The translations under genes were made by a program, and so were the position numbers. Below, in pieces: positions 23,052 through 43,096 of a stretch of DNA of 43,096 bases. The stretch lies in contig JBIIRB010000003.1 of NCBI GenBank assembly GCA_044341785.1, forward strand, positions 1 to 43,096. The letters are read 5' to 3'. The DNA comes from Bacilli bacterium. GTDB lineage: Bacteria; Bacillota_I; Bacilli_A; RFN20; CAG-826. The stretch's first letter is position 1. Every line of letters starts with the position of its first letter. The notes below the pieces were generated by a model. It ran no database searches, was not told the origin of the DNA, and saw only the letters and a list, made by a program, of their open reading frames with translations.

Positions 23052-23080
23052 ACGCTGCTTCATCGGCAGCGTTTTTCTTT
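23052..23080 (+). terminator. Rho-independent terminator between convergent pdhD and lplA
   Basis: ACGCTGC-ttcatcg-GCAGCGT followed by a T-tract. Confidence 0.8.
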
Positions 23081-23085
23081 TCCTT

Positions 23086-24078: not shown

Positions 24079-24160
24079 AATTTCTCCTGGCATTATTGTA
24101 GCCGAATCCCTTTGCTTCCTCAATGACCTTAATGAGACAAAAAAAGCACAAACTTGGGAT

Positions 24161-25507: not shown

Positions 25508-25902
25508 CGATGTTATTCCTTGTCACGTTCATTAGCTTAATGACCTTTAGTTTCATGCAAGTCAGTCGCATGGTGAGACGTGTTGATCTTACTTTATATG
25601 GTTTAGTACCCAGTGTTTTTGAGGCCGCTGTGGATTTAGGACATTGGATTGAAACGAATGAATTCGTTTTTGATTCCATTGAATTAGTAACGTCAATTGA
25701 ACGCCATCTGGTTGCAAGTTTATCAGACTTACCTATCACCTATTCAATCTCACTCGACTATCACCATTATGATTCAAAAATCCCTTGTGAGTCACTTTGT
25801 GATGCTGTTATTTTCCAATTTGAAGGGAACATCTTCAATCAATGGCCATTATTAAGGTCCTTTGAAGTTTACATCATCGATTATGAAAACAACGTCAATT
25901 AA
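25504..25902 (+). CDS. Hypothetical single-TM protein, possible minor pilin
   Basis: N-terminal TM helix, CESLC pair; ATG 25504 overlaps the upstream TGA. Confidence 0.6.
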   Translation: MTMLFLVTFISLMTFSFMQVSRMVRRVDLTLYGLVPSVFEAAVDLGHWIETNEFVFDSIELVTSIERHLVASLSDLPITYSISLDYHHYDSKIPCESLCDAVIFQFEGNIFNQWPLLRSFEVYIIDYENNVN

Positions 25903-28158: not shown

Positions 28159-28486
28159 AACGTCATTTATTTTATCGCTCATCTTTGTGATTCAACTCCT
28201 ACTCTTAATTGGAGATTTACTGATGATTCAAGTGGCGCACGCACGGTTGGATGCGATTGGCCTTGCCGCGAGTGCCTTAATCTCTAGACAAGGTGGAATT
28301 AATGAAGAGATTGTGTCATTTACAGAACAGCAATCGACCACCTTGACCTGTCTTTCGATGTGTAGTCCACGGCTTGGTGATGTCCTGACTTTTCGATTAG
28401 AAAAAACGATCGATCCCTTCATCATCAGTGAAGATACGATCCAACTCAGTGTCATCTACCATGCGGTGATTGGCTTTTATGCTTAG
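28148..28486 (+). CDS. TadE-like / minor pilin-like protein
   Basis: N-terminal hydrophobic helix followed by GDL..IQ...LD.......ISRQGG; CLSMC pair. Confidence 0.5.
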   Translation: MAYKTSFILSLIFVIQLLLLIGDLLMIQVAHARLDAIGLAASALISRQGGINEEIVSFTEQQSTTLTCLSMCSPRLGDVLTFRLEKTIDPFIISEDTIQLSVIYHAVIGFYA

Positions 28487-29510: not shown

Positions 29511-30023
29511 ATGAAAACCATCGCAATTTTAGTGGCCGATTTTTATGATGATTTAGAACTTTATTATCCTTTCTATCGTTTGCAAGAAGAAGGTTGGAAT
29601 GTGCATCTCATTGGTGCCATCAAACAACAAGGGTATAAGAGTAAACACGGGATGATCGCGACGAGTGAATTTGCTGCTCATGAGGTTCAACCTTCATCCT
29701 ATGATGGCTTGATCATTCCTGGAGGTTTTTCGCCTGACTACATGAGACGTTCAAAAGAGATGGTGGCGTTTGCAAAAGGGTTTGCCCAACTCAAACGTCC
29801 TATCGCTGCGATTTGCCATGGTCCGTGGTTAATGGCCTCCGTGTGTGATTTAAAAGGACGAAAATTAACAAGCTTTTATTCGATTCAAGATGATCTAGTG
29901 CATGCTGGAGCTATCTATGTGGATGCGCCTGTGGTCATTGATGGCAATTACGTCACATCACGAACACCCAAAGACTTGCCAGTTTTCGTGAAAGCTTTTA
30001 TTGGTTTAGTCAAAGGTTCTTAA
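29511..30023 (+). CDS. PfpI/DJ-1 family protein (type 1 glutamine amidotransferase-like)
   Basis: DLELYYP, IPGG, AICHGP, VTSRTPKDLP. Confidence 0.92.
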   Translation: MKTIAILVADFYDDLELYYPFYRLQEEGWNVHLIGAIKQQGYKSKHGMIATSEFAAHEVQPSSYDGLIIPGGFSPDYMRRSKEMVAFAKGFAQLKRPIAAICHGPWLMASVCDLKGRKLTSFYSIQDDLVHAGAIYVDAPVVIDGNYVTSRTPKDLPVFVKAFIGLVKGS

Positions 30024-31378
30024 GCAAAAATAAATCGTTGATCGTCAATCATCCGTAACGGATAATTTTTTCCTAAATGGCATGCGTATAAATCTTGTTC
30101 AAGCGGATTCATTAACCAGGGTTGATAAATCAAAGGAACAGGTAGATGGTTTAATTCCGGACACCAGCGTTTGACATAATCCCCTTGGGGATCATATTTT
30201 TTAAACTGTAAGGTTACATTAAAGACACGATTTTCTCGTGGGTCTGCTCCGACACCGGCTAAATATTGCCAATTCCCTAGATTACTCGTTGCGTCATAAT
30301 CCAGTAAGGCGTTTCGAAAGTAAGCTTCACCCCACGCCCACGGCAAGCCTAGCCCATGCACGAAAAAAGAAGCAACATTCTGTCGTCCTCGATTCGACAT
30401 CCAACCCGTTTGTTTGAGTTCGCGCATCGCGGCGTCCACGAGGGGGAAACCCGTTTCTCCTTCGATCCATCGGTGCATCTTGTTGTCATTCCAATTCACG
30501 TTGATTGAAGTATTCATCGGCGTTGCATGCAGTAAAAAGTAAAAATAATCTCGCCATAAAAGTTCAAACCAAATCCAATATGTGGAATCATTGGCACCAT
30601 ATTTTTTTTCAGCATCTTTTAAGGCATGGTAAATCGTTCTTGCACTGACATTGCCCCAAGCTAAGTAAGGCGAAAATCGTGTTGAGTCTTGAAAGTGCAG
30701 CATCCCATTGCGTGTTTTTTTATACGTTAAAGCAAGTTTTCGAACATGAAAATAATCATGGATATGGTTTAAAGCGGCAGTTTCTCCCATCGGTTGAACG
30801 AGTGTTGTCCTGTCAGTGAGTAATGTATTCAAGCGTTCCCAATGAGGATCAAACTCAATCTTGCAAGGAAGCGGTTGCGGTTTTTCCAACGGTGAAGACA
30901 CACGAATGTTATTTTCGACTTGCATACGAAAGTTGGTGTACGTCGCAGGTAAGTTTGCCAGTTGAAAAGGTAAATCGGTTAACGCTAGAAGAGTTGGATG
31001 GTCAAACACATGCAGCATTAAATTCGGAAAATGATTGTTTAATGCATTGATAAACAACGGATTCCATCTTGATGAGCGATAAAAACTGATTGAGGTTAGT
31101 GCATATTGAAGTGCAAACTTGTTGATGACGTCAATCGCATGACCTTGCTCTAAGGTTAAAGCGATATTCAGCGTCTGAAGTTGCAGCGATAAATCTTGTA
31201 AACTTTCAAAAAGAGCTTGCCGCTTAAACGATGCGGATTGGCGGTTAAGATGCTCTTCAGGAATGACATAAAGCGCTAACACAGCACTTTCGTGTTCTTG
31301 AGGAACAGCCCACCCCATATGGTCTAAGATTCGAAAATCTTTATCCAATAAAACGATGCGTAAACGGGGTTTATCCAT
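30020..31378 (-). CDS. CRY-DASH-like cryptochrome/photolyase
   Basis: YKKTRNG, STRFSPYLAWG, FELLWRDYF, TGWMSNRGRQNVASF, DYDATSNLGNWQYLAGVGADPRENRVFN. Confidence 0.85.
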   Translation of the reverse strand: MDKPRLRIVLLDKDFRILDHMGWAVPQEHESAVLALYVIPEEHLNRQSASFKRQALFESLQDLSLQLQTLNIALTLEQGHAIDVINKFALQYALTSISFYRSSRWNPLFINALNNHFPNLMLHVFDHPTLLALTDLPFQLANLPATYTNFRMQVENNIRVSSPLEKPQPLPCKIEFDPHWERLNTLLTDRTTLVQPMGETAALNHIHDYFHVRKLALTYKKTRNGMLHFQDSTRFSPYLAWGNVSARTIYHALKDAEKKYGANDSTYWIWFELLWRDYFYFLLHATPMNTSINVNWNDNKMHRWIEGETGFPLVDAAMRELKQTGWMSNRGRQNVASFFVHGLGLPWAWGEAYFRNALLDYDATSNLGNWQYLAGVGADPRENRVFNVTLQFKKYDPQGDYVKRWCPELNHLPVPLIYQPWLMNPLEQDLYACHLGKNYPLRMIDDQRFIFA

Positions 31379-32849
31379 GGCGTTTTATCATCACTTTCGC
31401 TTCTTCGCGGATACGGTTTTGATCAGACTTTTTCATTTTTTCCCAAAGTCGCACCATCATCCCCATGCGCGGATTTTGTTTTAATGGGGTTTGATGACGT
31501 GATATAAAATCCCAATATAAAATGTTAAACGGACAAGCTTTTTCACCTTGTTTGATTTCGACTTTGAATGTGCATGTGTCACAATAATTAGACATTTTAT
31601 GGATATAAGCGCCGGAAGCAATATACGGTTTGGTTGACATGGTTCCACCATCCGCGTAGAGTCCCATGCCCATGACATTTGGTGCGACAATCCATTCCAT
31701 GGAATCGATGTACATTTCATTGAACCAACGTTGCAAGGCAGCGGGTTCAACGCCAAGTAAATTAGCCGCATTGCTAAGCACCATTAATCGTTGGATGTGA
31801 TGATTATAACCGTATTGAATGGTTTCATGGATGGTGACTCGTAAACAATTGAGGTCGGTTTTACCATCGTAATAAAAGGAAGGTAATGGATGGTGATGTT
31901 GAAAATAATTGTTTTTTAAATAATCCTTTGACGACTGTAAATAAACACCACGAACATACTCGCGCCAGCCTAAGATTTGCCGGATGAAACCTTCCACAGC
32001 AGGTAACGGGAGTTGTTTTTGATGGTAAGCTTTTTCGGCTTTTTGAATCACTTCTAAAGGAGTCAACAACCCTAGATTGATAGAAGAAGAAAGCATGGAA
32101 TGGGACATCCAAGGTAAGCCGTCATGCATGGCATCCTGATACCGTCCAAAGGTCGCTAACCGATAATCGACAAAATGCTCAAGGGCTTCAATTGCTTGTT
32201 TTCTTGTCACCGGATAAGGCATGGTTTCCAGTAATCCTGGATGGTGAGGAAAACGATGTTTGACTTCTGCGATGATTGTTTGGGTGAGTTGATCTTCTTG
32301 AAACGTTAAGGCTGGAAAAATTTCTGGCTTTTCATCAATCCCTTGACGATTGTCACCATCGTAAGAATACTGACCTCCGATGGGTTTGTCACCGTCCATG
32401 AGAATATGAAATTTTTTTCTGAATTGACGATACAAGGGATCTAATTTCCATGTTTTGCCAATAGGCAATAACGTTTTCCAATTAGCAGGATTGATTAAAA
32501 ATAAAGGATCGTCCAATAAGGTGACGTTCTGAATCTCATCGATCCAGTCTTGTTCATAACGATTCGTGGGTTTAAAGATGATGATCTGATCATTAGAAAA
32601 TGTGGTGAAAGCTTCTTGAAGGGAATGAGCTTGAATCCATTGGGTTTGGTAACCTTGACGCTTGATATGGTCATGAAAATGGCGATAAGCAGATAAATGG
32701 AGTGCGATACGTTGCAGATGAAACCGATAGTACGTCCACTGATCATCCGAATCAATGAATAAAACAATATCGTGCTGACGATCGATACCACTTTGTTTTA
32801 AATAAAGATCATGAAGTTGATGTGAAAATAAAAAAAGGATTTTACGCAT
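31371..32849 (-). CDS. FeS-BCP cryptochrome / bacterial (6-4) photolyase
   Basis: FGRYQDAM, EGFIRQILGWREYV, HHIQRLMV, KPYIASGAYI; four Cys in LNCL, YCDTC and ACPF. Confidence 0.9.
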   Translation of the reverse strand: MRKILFLFSHQLHDLYLKQSGIDRQHDIVLFIDSDDQWTYYRFHLQRIALHLSAYRHFHDHIKRQGYQTQWIQAHSLQEAFTTFSNDQIIIFKPTNRYEQDWIDEIQNVTLLDDPLFLINPANWKTLLPIGKTWKLDPLYRQFRKKFHILMDGDKPIGGQYSYDGDNRQGIDEKPEIFPALTFQEDQLTQTIIAEVKHRFPHHPGLLETMPYPVTRKQAIEALEHFVDYRLATFGRYQDAMHDGLPWMSHSMLSSSINLGLLTPLEVIQKAEKAYHQKQLPLPAVEGFIRQILGWREYVRGVYLQSSKDYLKNNYFQHHHPLPSFYYDGKTDLNCLRVTIHETIQYGYNHHIQRLMVLSNAANLLGVEPAALQRWFNEMYIDSMEWIVAPNVMGMGLYADGGTMSTKPYIASGAYIHKMSNYCDTCTFKVEIKQGEKACPFNILYWDFISRHQTPLKQNPRMGMMVRLWEKMKKSDQNRIREEAKVMIKRHG

Positions 32850-32931
32850 AGTTCTATTTTACTTGATAACTCTTAAAAAAAACTTAATCGTGATTTAACC
32901 TTTTTTCTTTGTGAAGATTTATAATTATTTT

Positions 32932-33981
32932 ATGACGGATGTTCAATCAGATTGTATTCATCTCGCATCGTTAGGATTAGGAAAAGTTTTTGATCGTCCT
33001 TTGGTTGGCGTGATTGCCAAGGGCAAAGAAAACAAGTCATGGTATGAAGGGGATACCCTTTCTTTTTCATTATGGATTCAAACTTTACCAACATCATTGG
33101 ACTCGTTATTTTTCTCCTATGAAATTGATTTAGCTTTACTACAAAAAACGTCTTTTGCTTCATCCGTATCGTTTACTTTTTATTCGCCCCATGCAACAGT
33201 TCCTGGCCAGACGGTTGCGTGGTTAAAACGCCAAGGCCATCACGTTACTTTAATTGAAAATCCATTAGCGATCGAACTTAATCATGTGGTGTATGCTACA
33301 CAAAGGAACGATATTCCATTTATTGCTCAAAGTTTTGGTATGTCACTCGATGGTAAAATTGCAACGTATACGGGAGATTCAAAATATATTTCTGGTCCGG
33401 AAGTGTTACAAGCAATTCATCGGTTACGGCATCGATATCAAGCCATCATGGTCGGCATATCTACCGTGTTACTCGATCATCCCAAATTAACCACGCGCCT
33501 TCGTGACATACAAGGGCATTCACCGATTCGAATTATCTTGGATACGCATCTGCGCATCGCTTTAGACGAACCCCTTTTGTCCATCCAAGAAGGAGCCACT
33601 TGGATCGTCACGTCCATCGATGTGAATGAAAGCAAAATGCATGCAATCAAAAGTAAAGGTGCTAAAATTATACAAGTTCCGTTAAAAGGCGATCATCTTG
33701 ATCTAGCGCTCGTTTTAAAAACCATCAAACTTCATGGGATTCATTCAGTCCTCGTGGAAGGTGGAGCAACGTTGCATGGTTCATTTCTCGATCAAGGATT
33801 CTCGCATCGCGTGTATGCTTCGATCTCTCCACTATTCATTGGAGGCAAAGAAGCCAAATCCCCAATCGCCGGTCAAGGATTTAAAACTCTTAGCGAAAGT
33901 TTAAAACTTGCCTTTATCAATATCGAAACGTTCGGTGAAGATATCTTACTCACCGCAACGATCAAAGGAAAGAAAACATGA
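32932..33981 (+). CDS. ribD: RibD-derived protein: degenerate deaminase domain plus intact pyrimidine reductase domain
   Basis: SLDGKIAT, HRLR...IMVGISTVLLDHPKLTTR, VEGG present; HAE and PC...C Zn motifs absent; ATG 32932 preferred over GTG 32911. Confidence 0.85.
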   Translation: MTDVQSDCIHLASLGLGKVFDRPLVGVIAKGKENKSWYEGDTLSFSLWIQTLPTSLDSLFFSYEIDLALLQKTSFASSVSFTFYSPHATVPGQTVAWLKRQGHHVTLIENPLAIELNHVVYATQRNDIPFIAQSFGMSLDGKIATYTGDSKYISGPEVLQAIHRLRHRYQAIMVGISTVLLDHPKLTTRLRDIQGHSPIRIILDTHLRIALDEPLLSIQEGATWIVTSIDVNESKMHAIKSKGAKIIQVPLKGDHLDLALVLKTIKLHGIHSVLVEGGATLHGSFLDQGFSHRVYASISPLFIGGKEAKSPIAGQGFKTLSESLKLAFINIETFGEDILLTATIKGKKT

Positions 33982-35198
33982 TTAACAAACTAACCATTGA
34001 ACAGACGTTAGGCAAGCTCAAAAAAGGCGAAGCGGTGATTCTTGTCGATGATGAAAAACATGATGCTCATGTTCATGTTTTTCAAATCGCACAATATGCT
34101 TTTGAGCATCAAACGCTAGCCACGCTTCACGATATTCCTGGTGCAACCACCCTTGTCTTAGGTTATGAAAAATTTGGTGTGATCACCCATTCACAAAAAA
34201 ACGCTGCTTTTGAATACGATGAACCGGTGGCAACGATTGGTTCACTCAACGCGGGATTATCGTTAACGCTTCCCTTTTTTACGAAGACGATTGAAACGTT
34301 AATTAATCCGAAAGCAGATGATCGCCACTTTCGAACCGATGTAGGATATCAAACCCTTCCTGTTCGCCTTGGTGGAGCATTAAAACGTGCTGCTGCGGCT
34401 GAAGCGACCATGGATATTGCGACCATTTTAAAAGCCGAACCTGTGGCCATCATGGTGCCAAAGTTAGATCCCAAAGGTCGAATCTTGATGTTTAAAAATC
34501 TTTTAGAGGATAAGCAAACCTATGACATTTTTAGTATTTCGGATTTGATTGCCTATCGCTTGAAGTTTGAAGTTCACATCGAAAAAATTGCTGAAGCGAA
34601 AATGCCAACGAAGTTTGGCGAATTTAAAATGATTGGTTTTGTGAATAAACTCAATGGCGAACATCACGTTGCCTTAGTCAAAGGTAACGTGTCCACCCAA
34701 GAACCCGTCCTCTTACGCGTTCACTCGGAATGTTTAACGGGTGATTCGTTTGGTTCGCTGCGATGCGATTGCGGTAATCAATTACATACCGCCTTGAAAC
34801 GGATTGAAAAACAAGGCCGAGGCATCCTGCTTTATATGCGACAAGAAGGTCGCGGTATTGGTTTGATTAATAAAATTCGTGCTTATGCGCTTCAAGATAA
34901 AGGGATGGACACGGTGGAAGCCAATCTCGCATTAGGTTTCCCTGATGATTTGCGCGATTATGGGACCGGGGCTCAAATTCTTCAATCACTCGGTGTGACC
35001 AAACTTGAAGTGATGACGAATAATCCTTTAAAAATTCGCGGTTTAAGCGGCTTTGGTATTGAGATTGTGAAGCGACAACCGATCCAACCTAATCATAACG
35101 AACGTAGTGATCGTTACATGCAAGTGAAAAAAGATAAAATGGGTCATATCCTCAATTTAAAAAAGAATCCTAAACCTAAATCAAAATCTAAAGCCTAA
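33978..35198 (+). CDS. ribBA: RibBA-derived protein: degenerate DHBP synthase domain plus intact GTP cyclohydrolase II
   Basis: RVHSECLTGD...RCDCG, QEGRGIGL, RDY, TNNP intact; RibB catalytic motifs replaced. Confidence 0.9.
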   Translation: MINKLTIEQTLGKLKKGEAVILVDDEKHDAHVHVFQIAQYAFEHQTLATLHDIPGATTLVLGYEKFGVITHSQKNAAFEYDEPVATIGSLNAGLSLTLPFFTKTIETLINPKADDRHFRTDVGYQTLPVRLGGALKRAAAAEATMDIATILKAEPVAIMVPKLDPKGRILMFKNLLEDKQTYDIFSISDLIAYRLKFEVHIEKIAEAKMPTKFGEFKMIGFVNKLNGEHHVALVKGNVSTQEPVLLRVHSECLTGDSFGSLRCDCGNQLHTALKRIEKQGRGILLYMRQEGRGIGLINKIRAYALQDKGMDTVEANLALGFPDDLRDYGTGAQILQSLGVTKLEVMTNNPLKIRGLSGFGIEIVKRQPIQPNHNERSDRYMQVKKDKMGHILNLKKNPKPKSKSKA

Positions 35199-35203
35199 CG
35201 CTC

Positions 35204-35947
35204 ATGAATAAAATTGATATCTTAGACTTATTTAAGATGCCCATCGCGCATCGTGGTTTTCATCACGACCGTATCGAAGAAAACACCTTGAAAGCCTTTC
35301 AATTGGCTATCGAAAAAGGGTATGGCATTGAACTGGATGTTCGCTTGACCGTGGATGGAAAAATCGTGGTTTATCATGATCACGATTTAAATCGTTTGAA
35401 CGGCAAGAATGTTTTGATTCATGAGCAAACGCTACAACAACTGCAATCGATTCCTTTTCTTGTTTCTCAACAAGTCATGCCATCTTTGGACGATGTTTTC
35501 CAATTGGTGCAAGGACGTGTGCCCTTATTAATTGAATTAAAATACGACGCTAGGTTCACCACACCCTTAGCCGATGCATTAATCAACGTTTTAAAAACGT
35601 ATCGCTATCCTAACACCATTGCCTTGCAATCGTTTAATGCTCATGCGGTGCGTTATCTTACTCAAAAACGCAAGGTGCCATTTCCGGTAGGTCAATTGGC
35701 GAGTCATCGCATTGGGCAGCCGCATTCGTTTTTGAATCAGTTATATACGAAACTTTGGATCCGTCATTGGTCAAAACCTGACTTTATCGCCTATGATATT
35801 GAAAGTTTGCCACTTCCTGCGTTAGTTCGCCTGCGTAAGCAGGGTTATCGCGTTTTAACTTGGACCGTCAATACTCAAGAAAAATTGCTCAAAAGTAAAC
35901 GCTATGCCGATCAAATTATCTTTGAAAAAATAGCGCTTTCATCTTAA
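35204..35947 (+). CDS. Glycerophosphodiester phosphodiesterase family protein
   Basis: IAHRG, ENT, IELDV, VYHD, IELK, SFN, WTVN. Confidence 0.9.
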   Translation: MNKIDILDLFKMPIAHRGFHHDRIEENTLKAFQLAIEKGYGIELDVRLTVDGKIVVYHDHDLNRLNGKNVLIHEQTLQQLQSIPFLVSQQVMPSLDDVFQLVQGRVPLLIELKYDARFTTPLADALINVLKTYRYPNTIALQSFNAHAVRYLTQKRKVPFPVGQLASHRIGQPHSFLNQLYTKLWIRHWSKPDFIAYDIESLPLPALVRLRKQGYRVLTWTVNTQEKLLKSKRYADQIIFEKIALSS

Positions 35948-36025
35948 GCGATTTATTTGGATTTCATCTATATTTTTGATTTTAATCGGTTTATACTTTT
36001 CTTGTACTTAAAGGAAGGGCTGTGC

Positions 36026-37348
36026 ATGAATATTTTTAGTAGCCTCGTGCCTGTTAAGTTAGATGGGCATAAAACCCTGACCTCCCATGACGCGGTTAAA
36101 GTTGTTTCTAACCATGCGATACAACAAGTTTTTATTTCCATTGTTGCCCCTAATGGAGTGGAAATTGAATTGTTTGTCAAAGAAGGCGATGCGGTTCAAG
36201 TAGGGACAATCTTGGGTCGAAGAAAAGATATGTATGTGCCTTTTTTCTCGTCCGTTTCAGGAAAAATTACCGCGAAGGTCAATCTTTATAATCCCGTGAT
36301 TGGTCGAGCGACGGCGCATTTACAAATTGATAATGATTTTTTAAACACCCCGGCCAAACCGTTAACGATTTATTCTTTTGAATCCTCAGCGGATGATTTA
36401 ATTCAAGGTATTAAAGAGGCTGGCATTACGGGTTTAGGTGGCGCAGGCTTTCCAACGTATATCAAATATGAAGGCGCAAAAGGAAAACCCGTTGATTTTG
36501 TCATCATCAATGGGGTGGAATGTGAACCGTATTTATCCACGGATTATCATGCCGCCCAAATGTATGCTCTCGACGTCATGCAAGGGGCTGAACTGCTACG
36601 ATTAGCGGCGCACGCTAAGTATGCTTTAATCGCCTTCAAGAACACCAAGATGGCTATTAAAGACGCCTTAACGCCATTTCTAGATCGCTTTCCCCACGTA
36701 AAAATCAAAACCGTTCCTGATGCGTATCCCATGGGTTGGGAAACCACGTTAGTCAAACAGTTAACGGGCCGTACTTTTCAAAAATTACCCATTGAAGCTA
36801 AATGCATTGTGAACAATATTACAACCACCATGCATGTGGCACGGGCGTTGCTGCAAGGCAAACCGATTCTTGAACGCATTGTGACGGTTTCTGGCGAAGG
36901 CATTAAACATCCTGCGAATGTGAAAGCACCGCTAGGAACGCTCATGTCTAAACTCGTTGAAGATCTCGGTGGCTATGGCCTTGATGAAGCAACCGCATTT
37001 TTAGGTGGTCCGATGAGTGCAAAAGCCATCGTGGATGATAAGTTTGCTTTGCAACCTCATTTTGGCGCTTACACCGTATTAGCCCCCCAAGAAAATAGTG
37101 AAGAACCTTGCTTACGATGTGGAGCATGTACGGCGGCGTGCCCAGCATTTTTACAACCGATTGAAATTAAAAATGCCTTAGACAGCGACAACACCGCACG
37201 CTTACTAAAACTCGATGCGATGAAATGTGTCGAGTGTGGGATTTGTTCCTATGTTTGTCCTTCAAAAATTGAAGTCACCGAAGCGGTTAGAAAATCAAAA
37301 GTCAAAGTGCGCATCGCGATGGCCAAAGCCGCGATGATCAAAAAGTGA
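36026..37348 (+). CDS. rnfC: Rnf complex subunit C
   Basis: GITGLGGAGFPT, NGVECEPYL, GGPM, CLRCGACTAACP and CVECGICSYVCP; ATG 36026 after AAGGAAGG, TATACT at 35992. Confidence 0.92.
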   Translation: MNIFSSLVPVKLDGHKTLTSHDAVKVVSNHAIQQVFISIVAPNGVEIELFVKEGDAVQVGTILGRRKDMYVPFFSSVSGKITAKVNLYNPVIGRATAHLQIDNDFLNTPAKPLTIYSFESSADDLIQGIKEAGITGLGGAGFPTYIKYEGAKGKPVDFVIINGVECEPYLSTDYHAAQMYALDVMQGAELLRLAAHAKYALIAFKNTKMAIKDALTPFLDRFPHVKIKTVPDAYPMGWETTLVKQLTGRTFQKLPIEAKCIVNNITTTMHVARALLQGKPILERIVTVSGEGIKHPANVKAPLGTLMSKLVEDLGGYGLDEATAFLGGPMSAKAIVDDKFALQPHFGAYTVLAPQENSEEPCLRCGACTAACPAFLQPIEIKNALDSDNTARLLKLDAMKCVECGICSYVCPSKIEVTEAVRKSKVKVRIAMAKAAMIKK

Positions 37349-37358
37349 GAACGCGCGG

Positions 37359-39206
37359 ATGAAATTTATTAACACCCCAGGACCCTTCCTAAGAGATAAA
37401 CAAGCGAGTGTCAAACGCGACATGTTGGCTTACACGCTCGCGTTAAGTGTGGTTTGGATTTTTGCGATGGTTTATCAAGGGCTCGTTTTAGGACCTCGTT
37501 ATGCATTAGCCATTTTCATGATCATGCTGATTGCGCATGTCACGACATTACTCGCTGATATTTTAGTCGCGTTGTTACGCTATCAACCCTCGATGGGATC
37601 TCTCGGCAAACACGTGTTTCATGTTATTGGTGGCAATTATTCTTATGTGACGGCTACCTTGTTTGCCTTAATTATTCCTGTCGGCACACCGATGTATGCT
37701 GTGATTACCGGTGCATTATTTTCAACGTTACTGGTCAAATACGCGTTTGGTGGTTTTGGGGCCAATATTTTTAACCCTGCTATCTTTGGACGATTATTTG
37801 TAAGTATGGCCTTTGGATCATTACCCACCTTTCTACCGGGCGATACCTTCGCGTCGATTCCAACGTTAACCGAAACGGGTGCCACGATTACGTCGGCGTT
37901 AAACGCCCAAGGCTGGTTAGTGGATTCGCTGGAAGGGATGAATGTCAGTTTAAACAATTTGTTACTTGGGTTTTATTCGGGTGCGATTGGAGAAACGCCG
38001 ACCCTTTTAATTCTAGTGTTAGGTGCGATTTTAACTATTAAAAATGTTCATAATTGGCGTCCTACGGTGTTTTTCTATTCAACAATAATATTAACCACCC
38101 TCATCATGGGTTCGTTAGGTGGCGTCGATCCTTGGATGTTTTCGCTGATCTTTTTTTCCTCAGGATCAATCGCGTTTGGGGGTTCATTCATGCTAACGGA
38201 TCCTGTTACCTCACCCACGTCTAATTTTGGAAAATCACTCATCGGTGTCATCGCTGGATTTTTAGTGGTGTTAATTCGTTTTCAAACTCCTAACCCAGAA
38301 GCGGTTGCTTATGCAATTGCTCTCGTGAATATCATTTCACCGTCGATTGATCGACTCGCTACGGGACTCATTAATCAAAATCTCTTAGGTAAATGGGGCG
38401 TGATTGGTGCGACTGCGTTAGCCTCGTTTGGCATCAACGGATCATTAGTCTTGGCGAGTCTTGATGCTAGTGAATCAAGTTCGGTTTCAAGCAGTTCATC
38501 AGCCTCAGAATCAAGTTCAGAACCGGTCACCTACTTTAAAACATTCACAGGAACGGCAACGAACGGCAATTGTGCCAATGATGATGAAAATTGCACGGAT
38601 GCGGTTTACCATGACGATACGATTGTCGTTGATATCCACGTGAATGAATCCTATCAAATTCAAGCCATTGATGTGACGGGAACTGTCACCACCTCCGGTT
38701 ATTGGCGAACACAATGGAACAACCAAATTGTTGGGCTCCTTGAAGCCTATGGTGCCCTAAGCATTCAAGGCATTCAACAATTGGATGCGTTAGCCTTACC
38801 TTCCGAACTCAATATTTTGAATGTGACTAATTCTTCCATTCGCCTTGCCACGGCTCTCCAAGATGCCCTCCAAGATGTCGAGGTGAATGAAGGTCAATTT
38901 ACGTCCATCATTCCTGACCACCCTGAGTTGGGTGAATACACGATGAACGTTTTGGTTTATGTTGAGGATGGCACGATTGCAGCCATTGATCTAGCCTTAG
39001 ATGGCCAAGTGAGTGATCATCAACCGTACATCGACACGTGGGTGGCAGGATACGAGGACTTAGTGAACGCTTATCAAGGTTATGATGTGCAATCTTTCTT
39101 AGCGCTTGTAGAGATGCCTAATGATTTCACCACGGTCGGAGTCACGGTCAGTAGTTCGCGTTTATTTCAAGCCATTCAACACGCCCTTGCAGGTTATGGA
39201 GGTTAA
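37359..39206 (+). CDS. rnfD: Rnf subunit D fused to a Ser-rich linker and two FMN-binding-like domains
   Basis: FGGFGANIFNPA, TGAT, GAIGET, FMLTDPVTSP; roughly 250-aa C-terminal extension. Confidence 0.88.
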   Translation: MKFINTPGPFLRDKQASVKRDMLAYTLALSVVWIFAMVYQGLVLGPRYALAIFMIMLIAHVTTLLADILVALLRYQPSMGSLGKHVFHVIGGNYSYVTATLFALIIPVGTPMYAVITGALFSTLLVKYAFGGFGANIFNPAIFGRLFVSMAFGSLPTFLPGDTFASIPTLTETGATITSALNAQGWLVDSLEGMNVSLNNLLLGFYSGAIGETPTLLILVLGAILTIKNVHNWRPTVFFYSTIILTTLIMGSLGGVDPWMFSLIFFSSGSIAFGGSFMLTDPVTSPTSNFGKSLIGVIAGFLVVLIRFQTPNPEAVAYAIALVNIISPSIDRLATGLINQNLLGKWGVIGATALASFGINGSLVLASLDASESSSVSSSSSASESSSEPVTYFKTFTGTATNGNCANDDENCTDAVYHDDTIVVDIHVNESYQIQAIDVTGTVTTSGYWRTQWNNQIVGLLEAYGALSIQGIQQLDALALPSELNILNVTNSSIRLATALQDALQDVEVNEGQFTSIIPDHPELGEYTMNVLVYVEDGTIAAIDLALDGQVSDHQPYIDTWVAGYEDLVNAYQGYDVQSFLALVEMPNDFTTVGVTVSSSRLFQAIQHALAGYGG

Positions 39207-39208
39207 GT

Positions 39209-39841
39209 ATGAATGACCCTATTCAATTAAATCCCAAACTACCTGAAGTGAATGCGACAAAGAAAACGATTCATTTAACGACGTTTTTAGGAGGCATTTG
39301 TTTACTTGCCACGGCAGCGTTAGCCTCAGTCAATGCATGGACGGCACCGATCATCGCTCAACGAGAAGAGGACACACGTCAAGCAGGGTATTTAGCGTTA
39401 CTCGATTTAGAATCAAGCTCGGGATACAACATTGATCAAACGGAAGCCATTAGTTCATCACTATCGACGGTTGGGGTGACAAAGATGACCATTTTTTATG
39501 AAGAAAATACCGTCAATGTTTTTGGTTTGATTTACGATGTCAGCACAACGGGATGGGAAGCAGGTTTAAATTTCCAAGTCGGTTTCAAAGCAGGTTTATA
39601 TTCTGGTTTTAATAATGTATCCAATGGAGAAACTCCCAATATTGGTCGCATTTTTATCAACGATTTTGATGCAATCTTAACCGGATTATCTGCCGATGAT
39701 ATTAGCGTGGTGAATGATGCCGTCAATGCTTATTTAACTTCACGAACGTTATCGTTAACGTTTGCCAATGTCACGCGTGAGGTTATTGTGGATGCCTTAG
39801 AGGTCATGGCCCAAGATTATTTAGGGAGGATTGCTTCATGA
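39209..39841 (+). CDS. rnfG: Divergent Rnf subunit G
   Basis: FLGGIC...LASVNAWTAPII N-terminus, GW..G, ETPNIG; position in rnfCDGEA order; no TGAT motif. Confidence 0.75.
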   Translation: MNDPIQLNPKLPEVNATKKTIHLTTFLGGICLLATAALASVNAWTAPIIAQREEDTRQAGYLALLDLESSSGYNIDQTEAISSSLSTVGVTKMTIFYEENTVNVFGLIYDVSTTGWEAGLNFQVGFKAGLYSGFNNVSNGETPNIGRIFINDFDAILTGLSADDISVVNDAVNAYLTSRTLSLTFANVTREVIVDALEVMAQDYLGRIAS

Positions 39842-40470
39842 AAAGTTCCAAATTGAAACTTGTGTTTCAATCCGCCATTACCAATAACACGACTTTTTCA
39901 ATGATGTTAGGTTTATGTTCCGTGCTTGCTTCATCCAATTCATTATCGACCTCGGTCGGTATGGGTGTGGCCGTTATCATCGTCATCATGATCACCAACA
40001 TGCTCGTAAGTGCCGTTCGTAAAATTACTCCTGATGAAATTCGCATACCCGTATATATTGTTTTAATTGCATCCGTGGTGACCATCATCCAAATGCTCAT
40101 GCAAGCGTTTACGCCTCAATTAGCCATGAGTCTAGGTGTTTATTTACCGCTCATCGTCGTGAACTGCATCATTATGGCGCGTGCTGAAGTATTTGCTTCT
40201 CGCAATGGCGTATTGGATTCTTTATTCGATGGACTTGGAACCGGTTTAGGTTATTTTTTGTCGATTATTGTGATCTCGCTGGTGCGTGAAATCATAGGGA
40301 CTGGAATCTTACAATTCGTCGAACCCTTTGGTAACACAGAACTTTTCAATGTGCGGATTATCCCCCAAGAATTTGCCTTATCCATTCTGGTAACACCGAC
40401 AGGCGCTTTCATCACGATAGGATTACTCCTTGCCCTCGTCAATGCGATTGCCAAACGAAAGGATGGATAA
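39838..40470 (+). CDS. rnfE: Rnf subunit E
   Basis: LGLCSVLA, IRIPVYI, PLIVVNCII..RAE, REIIG. Confidence 0.94.
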   Translation: MKSSKLKLVFQSAITNNTTFSMMLGLCSVLASSNSLSTSVGMGVAVIIVIMITNMLVSAVRKITPDEIRIPVYIVLIASVVTIIQMLMQAFTPQLAMSLGVYLPLIVVNCIIMARAEVFASRNGVLDSLFDGLGTGLGYFLSIIVISLVREIIGTGILQFVEPFGNTELFNVRIIPQEFALSILVTPTGAFITIGLLLALVNAIAKRKDG

Positions 40471-40473
40471 ACC

Positions 40474-41049
40474 ATGGAATTATTAGGTCTTGCGATTTCG
40501 GCAATCTTTGTTTCCAATATCGCTTTAGTTCGCTTCTTAGGTATTTGTCCGTTTCTGGGTGTTTCCAAAAATACCGAGAACGCGATTGGAATGGCTTTTG
40601 CTGCTGTGTTTGTGATTTTCTTTGCCTCCATCATCTCTTACACGGTGCATTACCTGGTTTTAGAACCTTTAAACTTGGCTTATCTTGATTTATTAGCGTT
40701 TATATTAATCATTGCCGCATTCGTTCAATTTGTCGAAATGTTCATGAAGAAGTTCCTGGTTGGTTTATACAAATCGTTAGGCATTTATTTACCGTTGATC
40801 ACGACGAATTGTGTGGTCTTGGGTGTTGCATTAGAAAACATCACCATGCAACTCGACTTTTGGGAAATGCTCGTGTATTCCTTGGCAGTTTCGGTTGGAT
40901 TTGCTATGATTTTAGTGGTCTTCTCCGTGATTCGTGAACGGCTTGCCGCGCTCAACCGCATTCCTAAACCGTTCCGCGGTTCTGCAATTGCGTTCATCAT
41001 CACCGGATTGATGGCTATGGCCTTTATGGGCTTTGGAGGATTAGTATAA
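40474..41049 (+). CDS. rnfA: Rnf subunit A
   Basis: FLGICPFLGVS, LGIYLPLITTNC, IRER, MAFMGF. Confidence 0.95.
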   Translation: MELLGLAISAIFVSNIALVRFLGICPFLGVSKNTENAIGMAFAAVFVIFFASIISYTVHYLVLEPLNLAYLDLLAFILIIAAFVQFVEMFMKKFLVGLYKSLGIYLPLITTNCVVLGVALENITMQLDFWEMLVYSLAVSVGFAMILVVFSVIRERLAALNRIPKPFRGSAIAFIITGLMAMAFMGFGGLV

Positions 41050-41051
41050 AT

Positions 41052-41261
41052 ATGGATTTATCATCATTACCTGAATGGTTACGCTTAACGCTTGGTTTTG
41101 GCTTAATCGGAATTTTACTTGCCTTTTTTACATGGGCCACAGTGACCAATGCTAAAACAGAAAAACCTGATAATTGTAAAACGGTGGATTCCGGATGCTG
41201 TGGCAATACCGGTGCATGTAGCTGGGATAGTAAATTAAACGCAGTCAGTAAAGGAAAATAA
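41052..41261 (+). CDS. Small single-TM protein with a 4-Cys tail
   Basis: Fills the gap between rnfA and rnfB; GGAGG upstream; CKTVDSGCCGNTGAC. Confidence 0.7.
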   Translation: MDLSSLPEWLRLTLGFGLIGILLAFFTWATVTNAKTEKPDNCKTVDSGCCGNTGACSWDSKLNAVSKGK

Positions 41262-41266
41262 TATCG

Positions 41267-41581
41267 ATGGAAATCATCCACGCAGTGATGGTGATGATGC
41301 TTCTAGGGGCAACGCTTGGTTTAGTCTTAGGCGTATCATCAAAGCTGTTGATGGTCCACATCGATTCGCGTGAAGAAACATTGGAAGCGATGCTACCTGG
41401 TTTAGATTGTGGTGCGTGTGGTCACCCTGGTTGTAAAGGGATGACGCTAGCCCTCTTATCAGGAAAAGAATTCAAAGTTTCTGTATGTAAACCATCGAAA
41501 CTTGAACAACGACTGTCCATCCAAAAATATTTAGCAGAACATCCCGGACCTGACGGTAAAACGCTTCACGTTGAGGCGTAG
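41267..41581 (+). CDS. rnfB: Truncated RnfB (TM anchor and first Fe-S domain only)
   Basis: LPGLDCGACGHPGC...VCKP; 104 aa; no ferredoxin-type motifs. Confidence 0.8.
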   Translation: MEIIHAVMVMMLLGATLGLVLGVSSKLLMVHIDSREETLEAMLPGLDCGACGHPGCKGMTLALLSGKEFKVSVCKPSKLEQRLSIQKYLAEHPGPDGKTLHVEA

Positions 41582-41592
41582 GTGTTGAGATT

Positions 41593-41967
41593 GTGATGAG
41601 ACCCTTTTCACTTCATAAAACTTCTTTTGACGTTTATGCCTTTGCTATTTTAATTATCTTTACTTCACTCATCGTCGTGTGGACGAATGTCTATAATCGT
41701 CCGTTAGGTGCGCTTTACGCGAATGTGTACATTGAGACTGAACAAGTTGAATCCTTATCGCTATCCGTGGATCAAGAAGTGACGTTTTTTCAAGAGGATT
41801 ATCCAGTGTTATTAGGCGACATCACCCTTGAAATCATGTCACGTCGTGTCCGCATCAAAGAAGAAGTTTCACCACTTCATTATTGTTCACTGCAAGGTTG
41901 GATTGATCAACCAGGTTTACCCATCGTCTGTGCGCCTAATCAATTTTTAGTGGTCATCGAGGCCTAG
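41593..41967 (+). CDS. NusG domain II-containing exported protein
   Basis: N-terminal TM; SPLHYCSLQGWIDQPGLPIVCAPN. Confidence 0.8.
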   Translation: MMRPFSLHKTSFDVYAFAILIIFTSLIVVWTNVYNRPLGALYANVYIETEQVESLSLSVDQEVTFFQEDYPVLLGDITLEIMSRRVRIKEEVSPLHYCSLQGWIDQPGLPIVCAPNQFLVVIEA

Positions 41968-41968
41968 C

Positions 41969-42487
41969 ATGAATCGTCAACGCATTCTTCAATTAACACG
42001 GTTATCCGTCCTCCTTGCCATGGGGGTCATCCTCAATTACATTGAAACCTTTTTTATTCCGACGGCTTTTATTGCTCCTGGTATTAAACTTGGCTTAGCC
42101 AACGGCGTCGGATTAATTGTGCTATATTATTTTGGCGATACCGAGTTTTTAACGATTGGTGTTTTACGCGTCATCTTATCGGGTTTATTCACCGGATTTG
42201 GTTTTGCTTTTTTAATTGGGTTAAGTGGTTTTTTTGTCAGTGCATTGATGGTGATCATCGCTAAATATTTTCACTTATTTTCCATTTTTGGTTTATCGAT
42301 GATCGCGGCGGTTTTTCATGGGTTTGGTCAAATCTTGATGGTAACCTATTTATATGAATCCATTTATATGTTGAACTATTTACCCATTCTCATGGTGACC
42401 GGTCTCATCGCAGGTTTATTCATCGCTTGGATTGCCAAAGAAGTTTTAGAACGGTTGCGACTCTCTAGTCGATTACTTGAGGAATGA
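41969..42487 (+). CDS. Gx transporter / heptaprenyl-PP synthase component I family membrane protein
   Basis: PGIKLGLAN, LRV, S..G.S...AVFH..GQ. Confidence 0.82.
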   Translation: MNRQRILQLTRLSVLLAMGVILNYIETFFIPTAFIAPGIKLGLANGVGLIVLYYFGDTEFLTIGVLRVILSGLFTGFGFAFLIGLSGFFVSALMVIIAKYFHLFSIFGLSMIAAVFHGFGQILMVTYLYESIYMLNYLPILMVTGLIAGLFIAWIAKEVLERLRLSSRLLEE

Positions 42488-42489
42488 GT

Positions 42490-43096
42490 ATGAAAACCTG
42501 GATGCAGATGCTTTATAAAATTTTAAAACCACAAGAATGGTTGATCGTGCTGGTGTCTTTACTCATCTCAGGAATGATTGTCTCCTCGGTGATTGGGTTG
42601 CCGAGTGCTTCCATCTCCGAAACGTTAGCGTATGAACATATCGGTTATGCGATTCGCATTGAAACGACCACACAAAAAAAAGTGACACCTTTTTATACGA
42701 TTTTCCAAGTGGTTTATGAAAAGCAACGTCCCAAAGTTGAAATCGATCGGGTGAAAACGATTGTTGAAACGATGATTCCTACCTTGCACCAATTGGCGGA
42801 TCGTCACCATGATTTTTATGCAGATGAAACTAAAACAACCTTGGTCAATAACATCAAGCGGGTGAATGAAACGCTCGCGACTGGTGAACCGATTACCATT
42901 GATTTTCATTTATATGAAATGCTACGGGTAGGTATCGAAATGGGGAAACTCACCCAAGGACAATTTAATATGTTCATCGGAGAACTTTCGGCGTTTTGGG
43001 ATGACCTGATTGATGATCCTGATTATGGGCTTAACGTGCAATCATGGGACCCTTTTTATAATGAAGATGCGCAAGCAGACCTCAATCATTACTTAA
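42490..43096 (+). CDS. apbE: FAD:protein FMN transferase ApbE (3'-truncated by window; not in ORF track)
   Basis: Open frame to the window end; N-terminal TM; NNIKRVN...GEPITIDFHLYEML...TQGQFNMFIGELSAFW; rnf/NusG-II context. Confidence 0.75.
   Translation, partial: MKTWMQMLYKILKPQEWLIVLVSLLISGMIVSSVIGLPSASISETLAYEHIGYAIRIETTTQKKVTPFYTIFQVVYEKQRPKVEIDRVKTIVETMIPTLHQLADRHHDFYADETKTTLVNNIKRVNETLATGEPITIDFHLYEMLRVGIEMGKLTQGQFNMFIGELSAFWDDLIDDPDYGLNVQSWDPFYNEDAQADLNHYL

What the first reader, a model, noticed from the sequence alone, without database searches (positions are those of the whole stretch)
30020..35947. Candidate new pathway: two half-dead riboflavin genes head-to-head with two photolyases
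Seen: ribD and ribBA are both full-length open frames, but each keeps only one conserved half (the reductase and GTP cyclohydrolase II). No riboflavin synthase or lumazine synthase gene is adjacent. The 82-bp divergent spacer cannot hold an FMN riboswitch and is shared with an FeS-BCP + DASH operon. Known: GCH II makes 2,5-diamino-6-ribosylamino-pyrimidinone 5'-phosphate; FeS-BCPs (Agrobacterium PhrB, Rhodobacter CryB) use 6,7-dimethyl-8-ribityllumazine as antenna and DASH proteins use MTHF. Inference: the two surviving activities form a coherent two-step route from GTP to 2,5-diamino-6-ribitylamino-pyrimidinone phosphate that cannot reach riboflavin alone. It may have been repurposed to make an antenna chromophore or UV-protective pigment, for example an 8-ribityl-pterin-type compound. 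The co-transcribed GDPD might take part.
Basis: partly seen in the sequence, partly recalled or inferred. Interest (0 to 1): 0.82.

Follow-up and report, generated by a model that had tools for sequence, protein, structure and literature searches.

The report
Two-gene GTP-to-ribitylaminopyrimidine module beside photolyases
Two riboflavin genes that each keep only one working half form a conserved gene pair that here most likely starts ordinary vitamin B2 synthesis, yet related bacteria keep the same pair without any other B2 gene, so it may also have a job of its own.

Summary
The RibD-like gene keeps only its reductase, and the RibBA-like gene keeps only GTP cyclohydrolase II (GCHII). They lie head-to-head with an FeS-BCP and DASH photolyase operon.

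The "new pathway" reading is only partly supported. These are the genome's only GCHII and only RibD-type reductase. ribE-ribB-ribH lie on contig C38, which ends inside ribE. In 6 of 6 same-genus loci that operon starts with an FMN riboswitch and a stand-alone RibD-type deaminase. Here the pair therefore most likely feeds normal riboflavin synthesis.

Three results were unexpected:
- The reductase has Ser where eubacterial RibD has the Lys that selects the deaminated substrate (16 of 16 genus members). Ser-type reductases form one clade and never carry a live deaminase. This points to the archaeal/fungal order, reduction before deamination.
- The same gene pair occurs in six genomes of two other families (93-99% complete). 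No deaminase, RibB, RibH or RibE was found in them.
- Both dead domains are under purifying selection.

Photolyase linkage is genus-specific: 16 of 16 in the genus, 0 of 6 elsewhere, and 2 of 80 FeS-BCP loci in general. The GDPD gene belongs with rnf, not with the pair.

The parts
29511..30023 (+). DJ-1/PfpI family gene, left edge of the variable interval
   Evidence: PF01965 159 bits and TIGR01382 158.7, above cut-off 139. Kept next to DASH in 6 of 6 congener loci.
30020..31378 (-). DASH-type cryptochrome/photolyase, second gene of the photolyase operon
   Evidence: TIGR02765 367.5 bits, above cut-off 317.05; PF03441 205 bits.
31371..32849 (-). FeS-BCP (PhrB/CryB-type) (6-4) photolyase
   Evidence: PF04244 141 bits. 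PDB 8IJY, 4DJA and 3ZXS score 367-390 bits. Four invariant Cys with spacing 88/3/13.
32850..32931 (.). Divergent spacer: 82 bp to the ATG, 61 bp to the GTG at 32911
   Evidence: Sequence read; no Rfam match; no promoter-consensus hit in the spacer. Congeners have only 36-38 bp here.
32932..33315 (+). Relic of a RibD deaminase domain with its zinc site lost
   Evidence: No HAE or PCxxC motif. Co-linear with RibG residues 22-42 and 109 onward. hhalign E 0.005 against stand-alone deaminases. 86.7% identical to P0007, against 90.5% for the reductase part.
33316..33981 (+). Ser-type pyrimidine reductase (RibD_C)
   Evidence: PF01872 156 bits and TIGR00227 191.7 bits. It is the only RibD_C in the genome. 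Ser sits at the BsRibG Lys151 position.
33978..34571 (+). Dead DHBP-synthase-like domain of the RibBA-like protein
   Evidence: PF00926 only 36.6 bits. All RibB-invariant motifs are replaced in 7 of 7 congeners and in 6 of 6 genomes of other families. dN/dS is roughly 0.07-0.15, with dS saturated.
34572..35198 (+). GTP cyclohydrolase II domain
   Evidence: PF00925 250.8 bits and TIGR00505 266.4, above cut-off 205.85. It is the only GCHII in the genome. 225 bits against E. coli RibA 2BZ0, with the zinc Cys kept.
35204..35947 (+). GDPD gene; a neighbour of rnfC, not part of the module
   Evidence: PF03009 97.9 bits. Absent from 6 of 6 congener loci. Directly upstream of rnfC in G121, a genome of another genus that lacks the module.
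35957..43095 (+). rnfC, rnfD, one unassigned frame, rnfE/A, rnfB-like, NusG_II, Hpre_diP_synt_I and ApbE (cut by the window end): a flavoprotein cluster downstream

Best explanation
The RibD-like and RibBA-like genes form a conserved two-gene module. It combines a GCHII that carries a catalytically dead DHBP-synthase domain with a Ser-type pyrimidine reductase that carries, in this species, a dead deaminase domain.

In this genome the module supplies the first committed steps of ordinary riboflavin, DMRL and FAD synthesis. The remaining steps sit at a second locus: a stand-alone deaminase (inferred from congeners) followed by ribE, ribB and ribH, under an FMN riboswitch. ribF is on contig C21.

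The likely order is GTP -> DAROPP (GCHII) -> DARIPP (reductase) -> ARIPP (stand-alone deaminase). That is the archaeal/fungal order rather than the eubacterial one.

The module itself has no FMN riboswitch. In this genus it lies with the two photolyase genes in a variable interval between conserved flanks, just upstream of the rnf-apbE flavoprotein cluster.

Shown: domain states, gene content, synteny, riboswitch positions, the Ser/Lys pattern. Inferred: the reaction order, the presence of the deaminase in this incomplete assembly, and any co-regulation with the photolyases.
For: - The window holds the only GCHII and the only RibD_C in G000.
- ribH, ribB (276 bits) and ribE (cut by the contig end) are on C38. 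ribF is on C21.
- 13 of 17 congeners have a stand-alone RibD-type deaminase scoring 94-130 bits. It lies directly upstream of ribE-ribB-ribH in 6 of 6 loci examined, behind an FMN riboswitch in 6 of 6.
- Each congener with a GCHII match has one GCHII gene, found in 15 of 17 (in G004 it is split over two contig ends), and its frame of about 400 aa carries the dead domain.
- The module loci have no FMN riboswitch in 13 of 13.
- Ser occupies the Lys151 position in 16 of 16 genus members, whereas the bifunctional RibD of G031 has Lys.
- Among the 30 best loci of the class sample, 7 of 7 Ser-type lack HAE and PCxxC, and 22 of 23 Lys-type have both.
- 29 of 30 Ser-type sequences fall in one clade with SH-like support 96.
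- The stand-alone deaminase has Tyr at the BsRibG Lys79 phosphate-binding position in 7 of 7 (role of Lys79 from PMC8256712, passages read).
- Literature rule (Lys for AROPP, Thr/Asn for DAROPP, and a T35K swap that flips the preference): PMC3631187, passages read.
Against: - No RibD-type deaminase and no FMN riboswitch are in the G000 assembly itself. Their presence is inferred from congeners and from C38 ending inside ribE. The assembly is 84% complete.
- 4 of 17 congeners also show no such deaminase; they are 70-80% complete.
- The Ser-for-Lys rule rests on one mutagenesis study with a roughly 3-fold effect. Ser itself has not been tested.
- The stand-alone deaminase keeps the DPN motif that contacts ribose in RibG.
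- The reductase scores higher on the bacterial domain model (TIGR00227, 191.7) than on the archaeal DAROPP-reductase model (TIGR01508, 138.1, below cut-off 186.45).
- Six genomes keep the module without the rest of the pathway. Riboflavin supply therefore cannot be its only selected function everywhere.
Confidence: 0.65

Rival explanations
1. The module is a self-standing two-step pathway. Its product, DARIPP or its dephosphorylated form, has a riboflavin-independent role, for example a redox-active or dicarbonyl/NO-scavenging pyrimidine, or a precursor of an unknown pteridine. In this genus that role would exist alongside the supply of riboflavin synthesis, or instead of it.
For: - Six genomes of two other families (93-99% complete, one a single contig) keep reductase plus dead-DHBPS/GCHII as an adjacent pair.
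- In those genomes there is no RibD-type deaminase (0 of 6 at E <= 1e-10, apart from one 49.8-bit TadA-like hit), no RibH above cut-off (0 of 6), no true RibB (only the dead domain at 34-54 bits) and no RibE (0 of 6). RibF is present in 5 of 6.
- The control genomes gave matches for these families (14 of 14, 14 of 14 and 11 of 14).
- The GCHII domains are 70-78% identical across families.
- No FMN riboswitch lies at any module locus.
- Precedents for non-riboflavin uses of GCHII products: yeast RIB1 and NO tolerance (PMC7138843) and faba bean VC1 (PMC12202586). Only the search-listing abstracts were seen.
Against: - In this genus the riboswitch operon has no GCHII or reductase of its own, so the module is needed for riboflavin here.
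- No conserved third gene accompanies the module across families.
- No product is known.
- Only six genomes show the orphan state, and they come from just three genera (g165, g161, g188), so they are not independent.
Confidence: 0.35
2. One reading: the pair makes an antenna chromophore or UV-protective pigment for the adjacent FeS-BCP and DASH photolyases.
For: - The reductase lies head-to-head with the FeS-BCP gene in 15 of 15 congeners that have the FeS-BCP, and in G000.
- Within the sampled order, both gene sets occur only in this genus: 0 of 13 other genomes.
- All four genes lie in one variable interval between conserved flanks.
- FeS-BCPs bind DMRL (PMC4619345, passages read).
- Photolyase regulons are known to include the pterin gene folE (PMC9758184, passages read).
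Against: - The module occurs without any FeS-BCP in 5 of 5 genomes of other families that were searched, and no photolyase lies within 8-10 kb in 6 of 6.
- Only 2 of 80 FeS-BCP loci across bacteria have a rib gene in the flanks.
- Conservation inside one genus is shared ancestry, not independent evidence.
- DMRL, the known antenna, needs the whole second locus.
Confidence: 0.08
3. An ordinary eubacterial pathway order (deamination first) that is simply split into four monofunctional genes. Under this reading the Ser and Tyr substitutions have no functional meaning and the orphan pairs in other families are decaying leftovers.
For: - The deaminase is RibG-like over its full length, scoring 100-114 bits against solved RibD structures, and keeps the DPN motif.
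- The reductase passes the bacterial TIGR00227 cut-off.
- Split or half-dead rib genes are known: RibBX (PMC10012899, passages read) and AtRIBA2/3 (PMC3509567, abstract read).
Against: - Ser associates perfectly with loss of the deaminase: 7 of 7 against 0 of 23 in the class sample. In the top 150 library hits, all 19 Ser-type lack the zinc motifs.
- Ser-type sequences are monophyletic.
- The orphan pairs are intact, with strongly conserved GCHII, in three genera. That does not fit decay.
Confidence: 0.25

Closest known systems
RibBX of Proteobacteria (Shewanella, Aeromonas, Bradyrhizobium)
   Same: A RibBA-derived fusion in which one half is catalytically dead but retained, while a separate gene supplies the missing activity (PMC10012899, passages read).
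   Different: It is the mirror image. There the GCHII-like half is dead and RibB works. Here the DHBPS half is dead and GCHII works. This protein is not a member of that family.
Arabidopsis RIBA3 (monofunctional, bipartite RIBA that lost DHBPS activity)
   Same: The same domain state: a dead DHBPS domain with an active GCHII (PMC3509567, abstract read).
   Different: It is a plant paralogue that sits beside a bifunctional RIBA1. Here the protein is the only GCHII, it is bacterial, and its gene is paired with a reductase gene.
Plant PyrR/PyrD split of RibD
   Same: Deaminase and reductase activities lie on separate RibD homologues. The statement that PyrR keeps an inactive deaminase domain is recalled. 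PMC6793443 (passages read) confirms only that there are two homologues and that DEK33 has a deaminase domain.
   Different: By the literature rule plants use the eubacterial order with a Lys-type reductase. A COG3236 domain is reported on one of the two plant homologues; none is present here. Here the specificity residue is Ser.
Fungal Rib7 and archaeal (M. jannaschii) DAROPP reductases
   Same: A small polar residue instead of Lys at the specificity position, and a reductase with no live deaminase attached (PMC3631187; alignment to 2AZN).
   Different: Ser rather than Thr or Asn. The score is below the TIGR01508 cut-off (138.1 against 186.45). The relic N-terminal domain shows descent from a bifunctional bacterial RibD.
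Toxoflavin-type clusters that use a GCHII and a RibD homologue (recalled, not checked here)
   Same: GCHII plus a RibD-like enzyme recruited outside riboflavin synthesis.
   Different: No methyltransferase or other tailoring genes accompany the pair in any locus examined.

Membership tests
Bifunctional RibD (TIGR00326) | CDA-type zinc site (H-A-E and P-C-x-C) in the N-terminal domain | tested here: not met
   No HAE or PCxxC. Residues 37-87 hold no His or Cys. The HAE stretch is deleted relative to the RibD of G031.
Bifunctional RibD (TIGR00326) | Score at or above the curated cut-off | tested here: not met
   145 bits, below 156.35, with alignment only from model position 97.
RibD C-terminal reductase domain (TIGR00227 / PF01872) | Score above cut-off and the SLDGK...GDSKYI substrate motif | tested here: met
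   191.7 bits, above 150.15; PF01872 156 bits. Motif seen.
Eubacterial AROPP-specific reductase | Lys at BsRibG 151 / EcRibD 152 | tested here: not met
   Ser in 16 of 16 genus members and in 6 of 6 module copies of other families.
Archaeal DAROPP reductase (TIGR01508) | Score above cut-off; Asn or Thr at the specificity position | tested here: inconclusive
   138.1 bits, below 186.45. The residue is Ser: small and polar, but untested.
Bifunctional RibBA (NF006803 and related models) | Score above cut-off and intact DHBPS catalytic motifs | tested here: not met
   365.8 bits, below 569. All RibB-invariant motifs are replaced.
GTP cyclohydrolase II RibA (TIGR00505 / NF001591) | Score above cut-off; three zinc Cys and the catalytic Tyr | tested here: met
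   266.4 bits, above 205.85, and 272.3 bits, above 148. C-x10-C-x-C and the Tyr are kept against 2BZ0. The residue roles are recalled.
FeS-BCP (PhrB/CryB) photolyase | Four Cys ligands of the 4Fe-4S cluster and the DPRP N-terminal domain | tested here: met
   C335, C423, C426 and C439 are invariant in 7 of 7. PF04244 scores 141 bits and 4DJA 386 bits. C350, C438 and C441 are named as cluster ligands in PMC4619345; the fourth is recalled.
FeS-BCP (PhrB/CryB) photolyase | DMRL bound as antenna | not testable with these tools
   Needs chromophore analysis of the protein.
Cry-DASH (TIGR02765) | Score above cut-off | tested here: met
   367.5 bits, above 317.05.

The most novel reading that the evidence does not exclude
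The pair is an autonomous two-enzyme pathway, conserved in Acholeplasma-like bacteria, that turns GTP into 2,5-diamino-6-ribitylamino-4(3H)-pyrimidinone 5'-phosphate. Riboflavin auxotrophs keep it for a purpose other than vitamin B2, for example a redox-active or dicarbonyl-trapping pyrimidine or an unknown 8-ribityl-pteridine. The window's genus has secondarily plugged a deaminase-ribE-ribB-ribH operon into it. That would give the first bacterial riboflavin route that runs in the archaeal/fungal order.
Probability: 0.3. Interest if true: 0.8.

Novelty: new variant of a known kind. Interest (0 to 1): 0.6.

Why it matters
Textbooks hold that bacteria deaminate before they reduce in riboflavin synthesis, and that GCHII and RibD reductase exist only to make vitamin B2. 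This work finds a monophyletic bacterial clade of reductases that lacks the specificity lysine, is never joined to a live deaminase, and is always paired with a half-dead RibBA. In six near-complete genomes that pair stands without the rest of the pathway.

Both points can be tested directly with cultivable Acholeplasma-type strains and simple enzyme assays. The result bears on three things: genome-based vitamin auxotrophy calls, since these proteins are auto-named "bifunctional RibD" and "RibBA"; predictions of which bacteria can make riboflavin-pathway intermediates; and how bifunctional enzymes partition after duplication.

Tried and rejected
- Structure prediction of the RibD-like protein from a 7-row alignment gave mean pLDDT 54.7, and under 50 across the relic. 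It was not used and no fold search was run.
- A metagenome-contig scan for close relatives of the RibD-like gene found nothing. dN/dS of the relic therefore could not be computed; protein divergence against P0007 was used instead.
- dN/dS on the RibBA-like gene: dS is 0.8 or higher in every pair, so the ratios are rough.
- RNA evidence: no RNA holder was listed. Of three metatranscriptome runs, one gave two short contigs, one of them spanning 33790-34033 across the reductase/RibBA-like junction. This is too little to claim a transcript.
- The promoter/terminator scan found no more sites than shuffled sequence would give, and none in the spacer.
- A word-index search with the dead DHBPS domain found only 4 close relatives.
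- A search for a conserved third gene next to the module across families found none.
- Denser sampling of G326's order added no further Ser-type genome: 1 of 151.
- Rejected: GDPD as part of the unit.
- Rejected: an FMN riboswitch hidden in the spacer.
- Rejected: a GCH-III-like change of the GCHII, because the Tyr is kept.
- Paper supplements were closed and not consulted. The alignment figures of PMC3631187 were not visible, so the Thr/Asn/Lys pattern is taken from its text.
- Literature searches for the orphan pair found only PMC3942410. It notes (passages read) that A. laidlawii is annotated with the pyrimidine-converting proteins plus RibF, without analysing them.

Full report
**What is in the window.** The frames are DJ-1/PfpI 29511-30023 (+), DASH 30020-31378 (-), FeS-BCP 31371-32849 (-), RibD-like 32911 or 32932 to 33981 (+), RibBA-like 33978-35198 (+) and GDPD 35204-35947 (+). 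They are followed by rnfC, rnfD, an unassigned frame, two Rnf-Nqr membrane subunits, an rnfB-like FeS protein, a NusG_II protein, a Hpre_diP_synt_I protein and ApbE, which the window end cuts. The window is contig C75 of a 944-kb, 105-contig assembly rated 84% complete.

**The two "half-dead" genes are real.**
- The RibD-like protein matches only RibD_C (156 bits, residues 136-347). It passes the bacterial RibD C-terminal domain model (TIGR00227, 191.7 against a cut-off of 150.15) but not the bifunctional model (145 against 156.35, aligned from model position 97 only).
- Its first ~135 residues are a co-linear relic of the deaminase domain. Residues 16-36 pair with B. subtilis RibG 22-42 (below threshold), and residues 88 onward pair with RibG 109 onward. 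hhalign against six stand-alone deaminases gives E 0.005 and 28% identity.
- The HAE stretch is deleted and the EPC...C loop is replaced. Residues 37-87 hold no His or Cys.
- The RibBA-like protein has a strong GCHII domain (250.8 bits; 225 bits against E. coli RibA with the zinc cysteines and the Tyr kept).
- Its DHBPS-like domain scores 36.6 bits yet spans the whole profile. Every motif that is invariant in seven true RibB proteins is replaced.

**The rest of the pathway exists.**
- In G000 the window holds the only GCHII and the only RibD_C.
- Contig C38 carries ribH (139 aa), a stand-alone ribB (213 aa, 276 bits) and ribE, and it ends inside ribE. ribF is on C21.
- The three CDA-fold deaminases in the assembly look, from motifs and neighbours, like tadA (next to serS), a dCMP deaminase, and cdd (in a ybeY-cdd-era-recO row). 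That is my reading; they were not scanned against families.
- No RibD-type deaminase and no FMN riboswitch are in the assembly.
- In same-genus genomes, 13 of 17 have a stand-alone RibD-type deaminase of 137-145 aa scoring 94-130 bits. In 6 of 6 loci examined it lies directly upstream of ribE-ribB-ribH, behind an FMN riboswitch in 6 of 6.
- The piece missing from G000 is thus most simply an assembly gap beyond C38. This is inferred, not shown.
- The riboswitch operon has no GCHII or reductase of its own. Each congener with a match has one GCHII gene (15 of 17; in G004 it is split over two contig ends), and it lies in a frame of about 400 aa that carries the dead domain.

**Photolyase linkage.**
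- The order DJ-1 >, < DASH, < FeS-BCP, reductase >, RibBA-like >, rnfC >, rnfD > is kept in 6 of 6 congener loci at 40-58% protein identity.
- By coordinates the reductase is head-to-head with the FeS-BCP gene in 15 of 15 congeners that have the FeS-BCP.
- Outside the genus the link fails. Of 13 genomes from other genera of the order, none has an FeS-BCP or a GCHII.
- Of 80 FeS-BCP loci from across bacteria, only two have any rib gene in the flanks. One is the best hit, L056 (genome G031), where a conventional ribBA-ribH lies tail-to-tail with DASH-FeS-BCP. The other is a Synechococcus locus with ribH 4 kb away.
- G031 also has a canonical bifunctional RibD behind an FMN riboswitch.
- GDPD is absent from 6 of 6 congener loci. 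It sits directly upstream of rnfC in G121, a genome of another genus that has no module.
- In G534, homologues of window frames 25862-28486 lie 3.3 kb from rnfC with none of DJ-1, the photolyases or the module between them. The photolyases and the module thus occupy one variable interval between conserved flanks.

**The dead domains are under selection.**
- For the RibBA-like gene, the DHBPS-like half aligns without a single gap over 198 columns in seven species. Its dN/dS is roughly 0.07-0.15, against 0.01-0.05 for the GCHII half, in the least saturated pairs (dS is 0.8 or higher in every pair, so these are rough).
- Among species representatives of the genus, only G000 has the deaminase relic; the other 15 have frames of 234-259 aa.
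- A database protein at 89% identity (P0007) keeps the relic with no indel. It is 86.7% identical over residues 1-105, against 90.5% over the reductase.

**The unexpected part: a Ser-type reductase clade.**
- At the position of B. subtilis RibG Lys151 / E. coli RibD Lys152, the window's reductase and all 15 congeners have Ser (motif TLS[F/Y]GMS[L/M]DGK). The bifunctional RibD of G031 has Lys.
- PMC3631187 (passages read) states that this Lys is conserved in eubacteria and favours the deaminated substrate AROPP. Fungi have Thr and archaea Asn, and both reduce DAROPP. A T35K change in yeast RIB7 shifts the preference about 3-fold.
- A full HMMER search of 1.84 billion representative proteins gave 150 best hits; 14 had no recognisable motif and were left out of the tabulation. 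The 15 highest scorers with a motif (255-419 bits) and four more have Ser, and all lack HAE and PCxxC. Thirteen of these 19 are 336-371 aa with a dead N-terminal domain of 110-145 aa. Every hit that has both zinc motifs has Lys, except two with His.
- In a sample of 400 genomes of the class, the 30 best loci split into 7 Ser-type, none with zinc motifs, and 23 Lys-type, 22 with both. The exception is cut by a contig end.
- A FastTree tree of 149 reductase domains puts 29 of 30 Ser-type rows in one clade with SH-like support 96. Rows without the motif, or shorter than 180 residues after it, were left out.
- The stand-alone deaminase of the genus is changed too. It reads EPCAHDDY[F/Y]PSC (EPCAHDDLYPSC in one of the seven) instead of EPCxHxG[K/R]TPPC, so RibG Lys79 is a Tyr in 7 of 7. 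PMC8256712 describes Lys79 as the phosphate binder (passages read). The ribose-contacting DPN motif is kept.
- Together these results fit a reduction-first order, but no enzyme has been assayed.

**The same pair stands alone in other families.**
- The six Ser-type genomes outside the genus (G326 in family f25; G243, G292, G348, G320 and G362 in f26; 93-99% complete, one a single contig) all have the reductase gene followed by a dead-DHBPS/GCHII gene. The same motifs are lost, and the GCHII is 70-78% identical to the window's.
- In these genomes no RibD-type deaminase was found (0 of 6 at E <= 1e-10, apart from one 49.8-bit TadA-like hit). Nor was any RibH above cut-off (0 of 6), any true RibB (only the dead domain, 34-54 bits) or any RibE (0 of 6). 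RibF is present in 5 of 6. The same family searches gave matches in the control genomes.
- No FeS-BCP was found in the 5 of these genomes that were searched. No FMN riboswitch lies near the pair. No third gene is shared next to it across families.
- The distribution is patchy. No match at E <= 1e-20 was found in 0 of 40 other genomes of the window's own family. Only 1 of 151 genomes in G326's order has a Ser-type score; in G326's own genus, 6 of the 9 other sampled genomes give only a weaker match (174-191 bits), and the one of them read (L163) is Lys-type with both zinc motifs.
- One Ser-type protein cluster includes a protein that NCBI names RibD of Paracholeplasma brassicae.
- PMC3942410 (passages read) notes that A. 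laidlawii is annotated with the pyrimidine-converting proteins plus RibF, without comment on the missing steps.

**Reading.** In this genome the pair most likely starts ordinary riboflavin synthesis, and the second locus depends on it. In riboflavin-auxotrophic relatives that unit must serve some other purpose, which remains unknown. The photolyase and GDPD links are not part of what is conserved.

**Known relatives in kind.**
- RibBX is the mirror image (PMC10012899).
- AtRIBA3 has the same domain state (PMC3509567).
- Plants split RibD into PyrR and PyrD (PMC6793443).
- Fungal and archaeal Rib7 carry a small polar residue at the specificity position (PMC3631187).

I found no paper on the orphan pair or on a Ser-type bacterial reductase in searches. 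That library lacks most subscription journals.

Noticed in passing
window 37359-39206 and 39209-39841: The rnfD frame is 615 aa, about twice the usual length; the Pfam match covers only residues 7-333. The next 210-aa frame has no Pfam hit and may be a divergent RnfG. The long form is shared by congeners, where tblastn covers residues 3-613.
   Followed up: no
window 41593-43095: NusG_II, Hpre_diP_synt_I and ApbE (flavin transferase, cut by the window end) follow the rnf genes. Flavoprotein genes therefore flank the rib pair on both sides.
   Followed up: partly
window 18218-24123: A pyruvate/2-oxoacid dehydrogenase complex (E1 alpha, E1 beta, E2, E3) with a lipoate-protein ligase on the opposite strand.
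   Followed up: no
window 24557-28486: A row of small genes that includes a T2SSE-type ATPase (competence or pilus-like). Homologues keep the same order upstream of rnfC in G534.
   Followed up: partly
L044-L049 (congener loci), spacer between the FeS-BCP and reductase genes: The divergent spacer is only 36-38 bp in five of the six congeners (about 100 bp in L047) and carries a conserved AATGTAGCAYAAGTAGTAT-like stretch in those five, so both genes may have very short leaders or none. The 82-bp spacer of G000 does not share it.
   Followed up: no
L136 3159-3755 (G031): A frame that starts with an FAD-binding GGGxGG motif, resembling a phytoene desaturase, lies two genes upstream of the FMN riboswitch and ribD.
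   Followed up: no
L174 11941-12140 and 15802-15876 (G362): Three c-di-GMP-I riboswitch matches (42.8-46 bits, gathering score 35) lie within 4 kb, a few kb from the orphan module.
   Followed up: no
G326:C1:1299730-1300041 and four other orphan-module genomes: In 5 of 5 genomes searched, a frame (385-776 aa; 465-488 aa in three of them) gives a weak FAD_binding_7 match of 21-30 bits. This may be a divergent photolyase-like protein. In G326 it lies about 30 kb from the module.
   Followed up: no
L170 10245-10760 and L171 14285-14797: In genus g161 a glutathione peroxidase gene lies upstream of the orphan module: immediately upstream in G243, about 3.7 kb away in G292.
   Followed up: no
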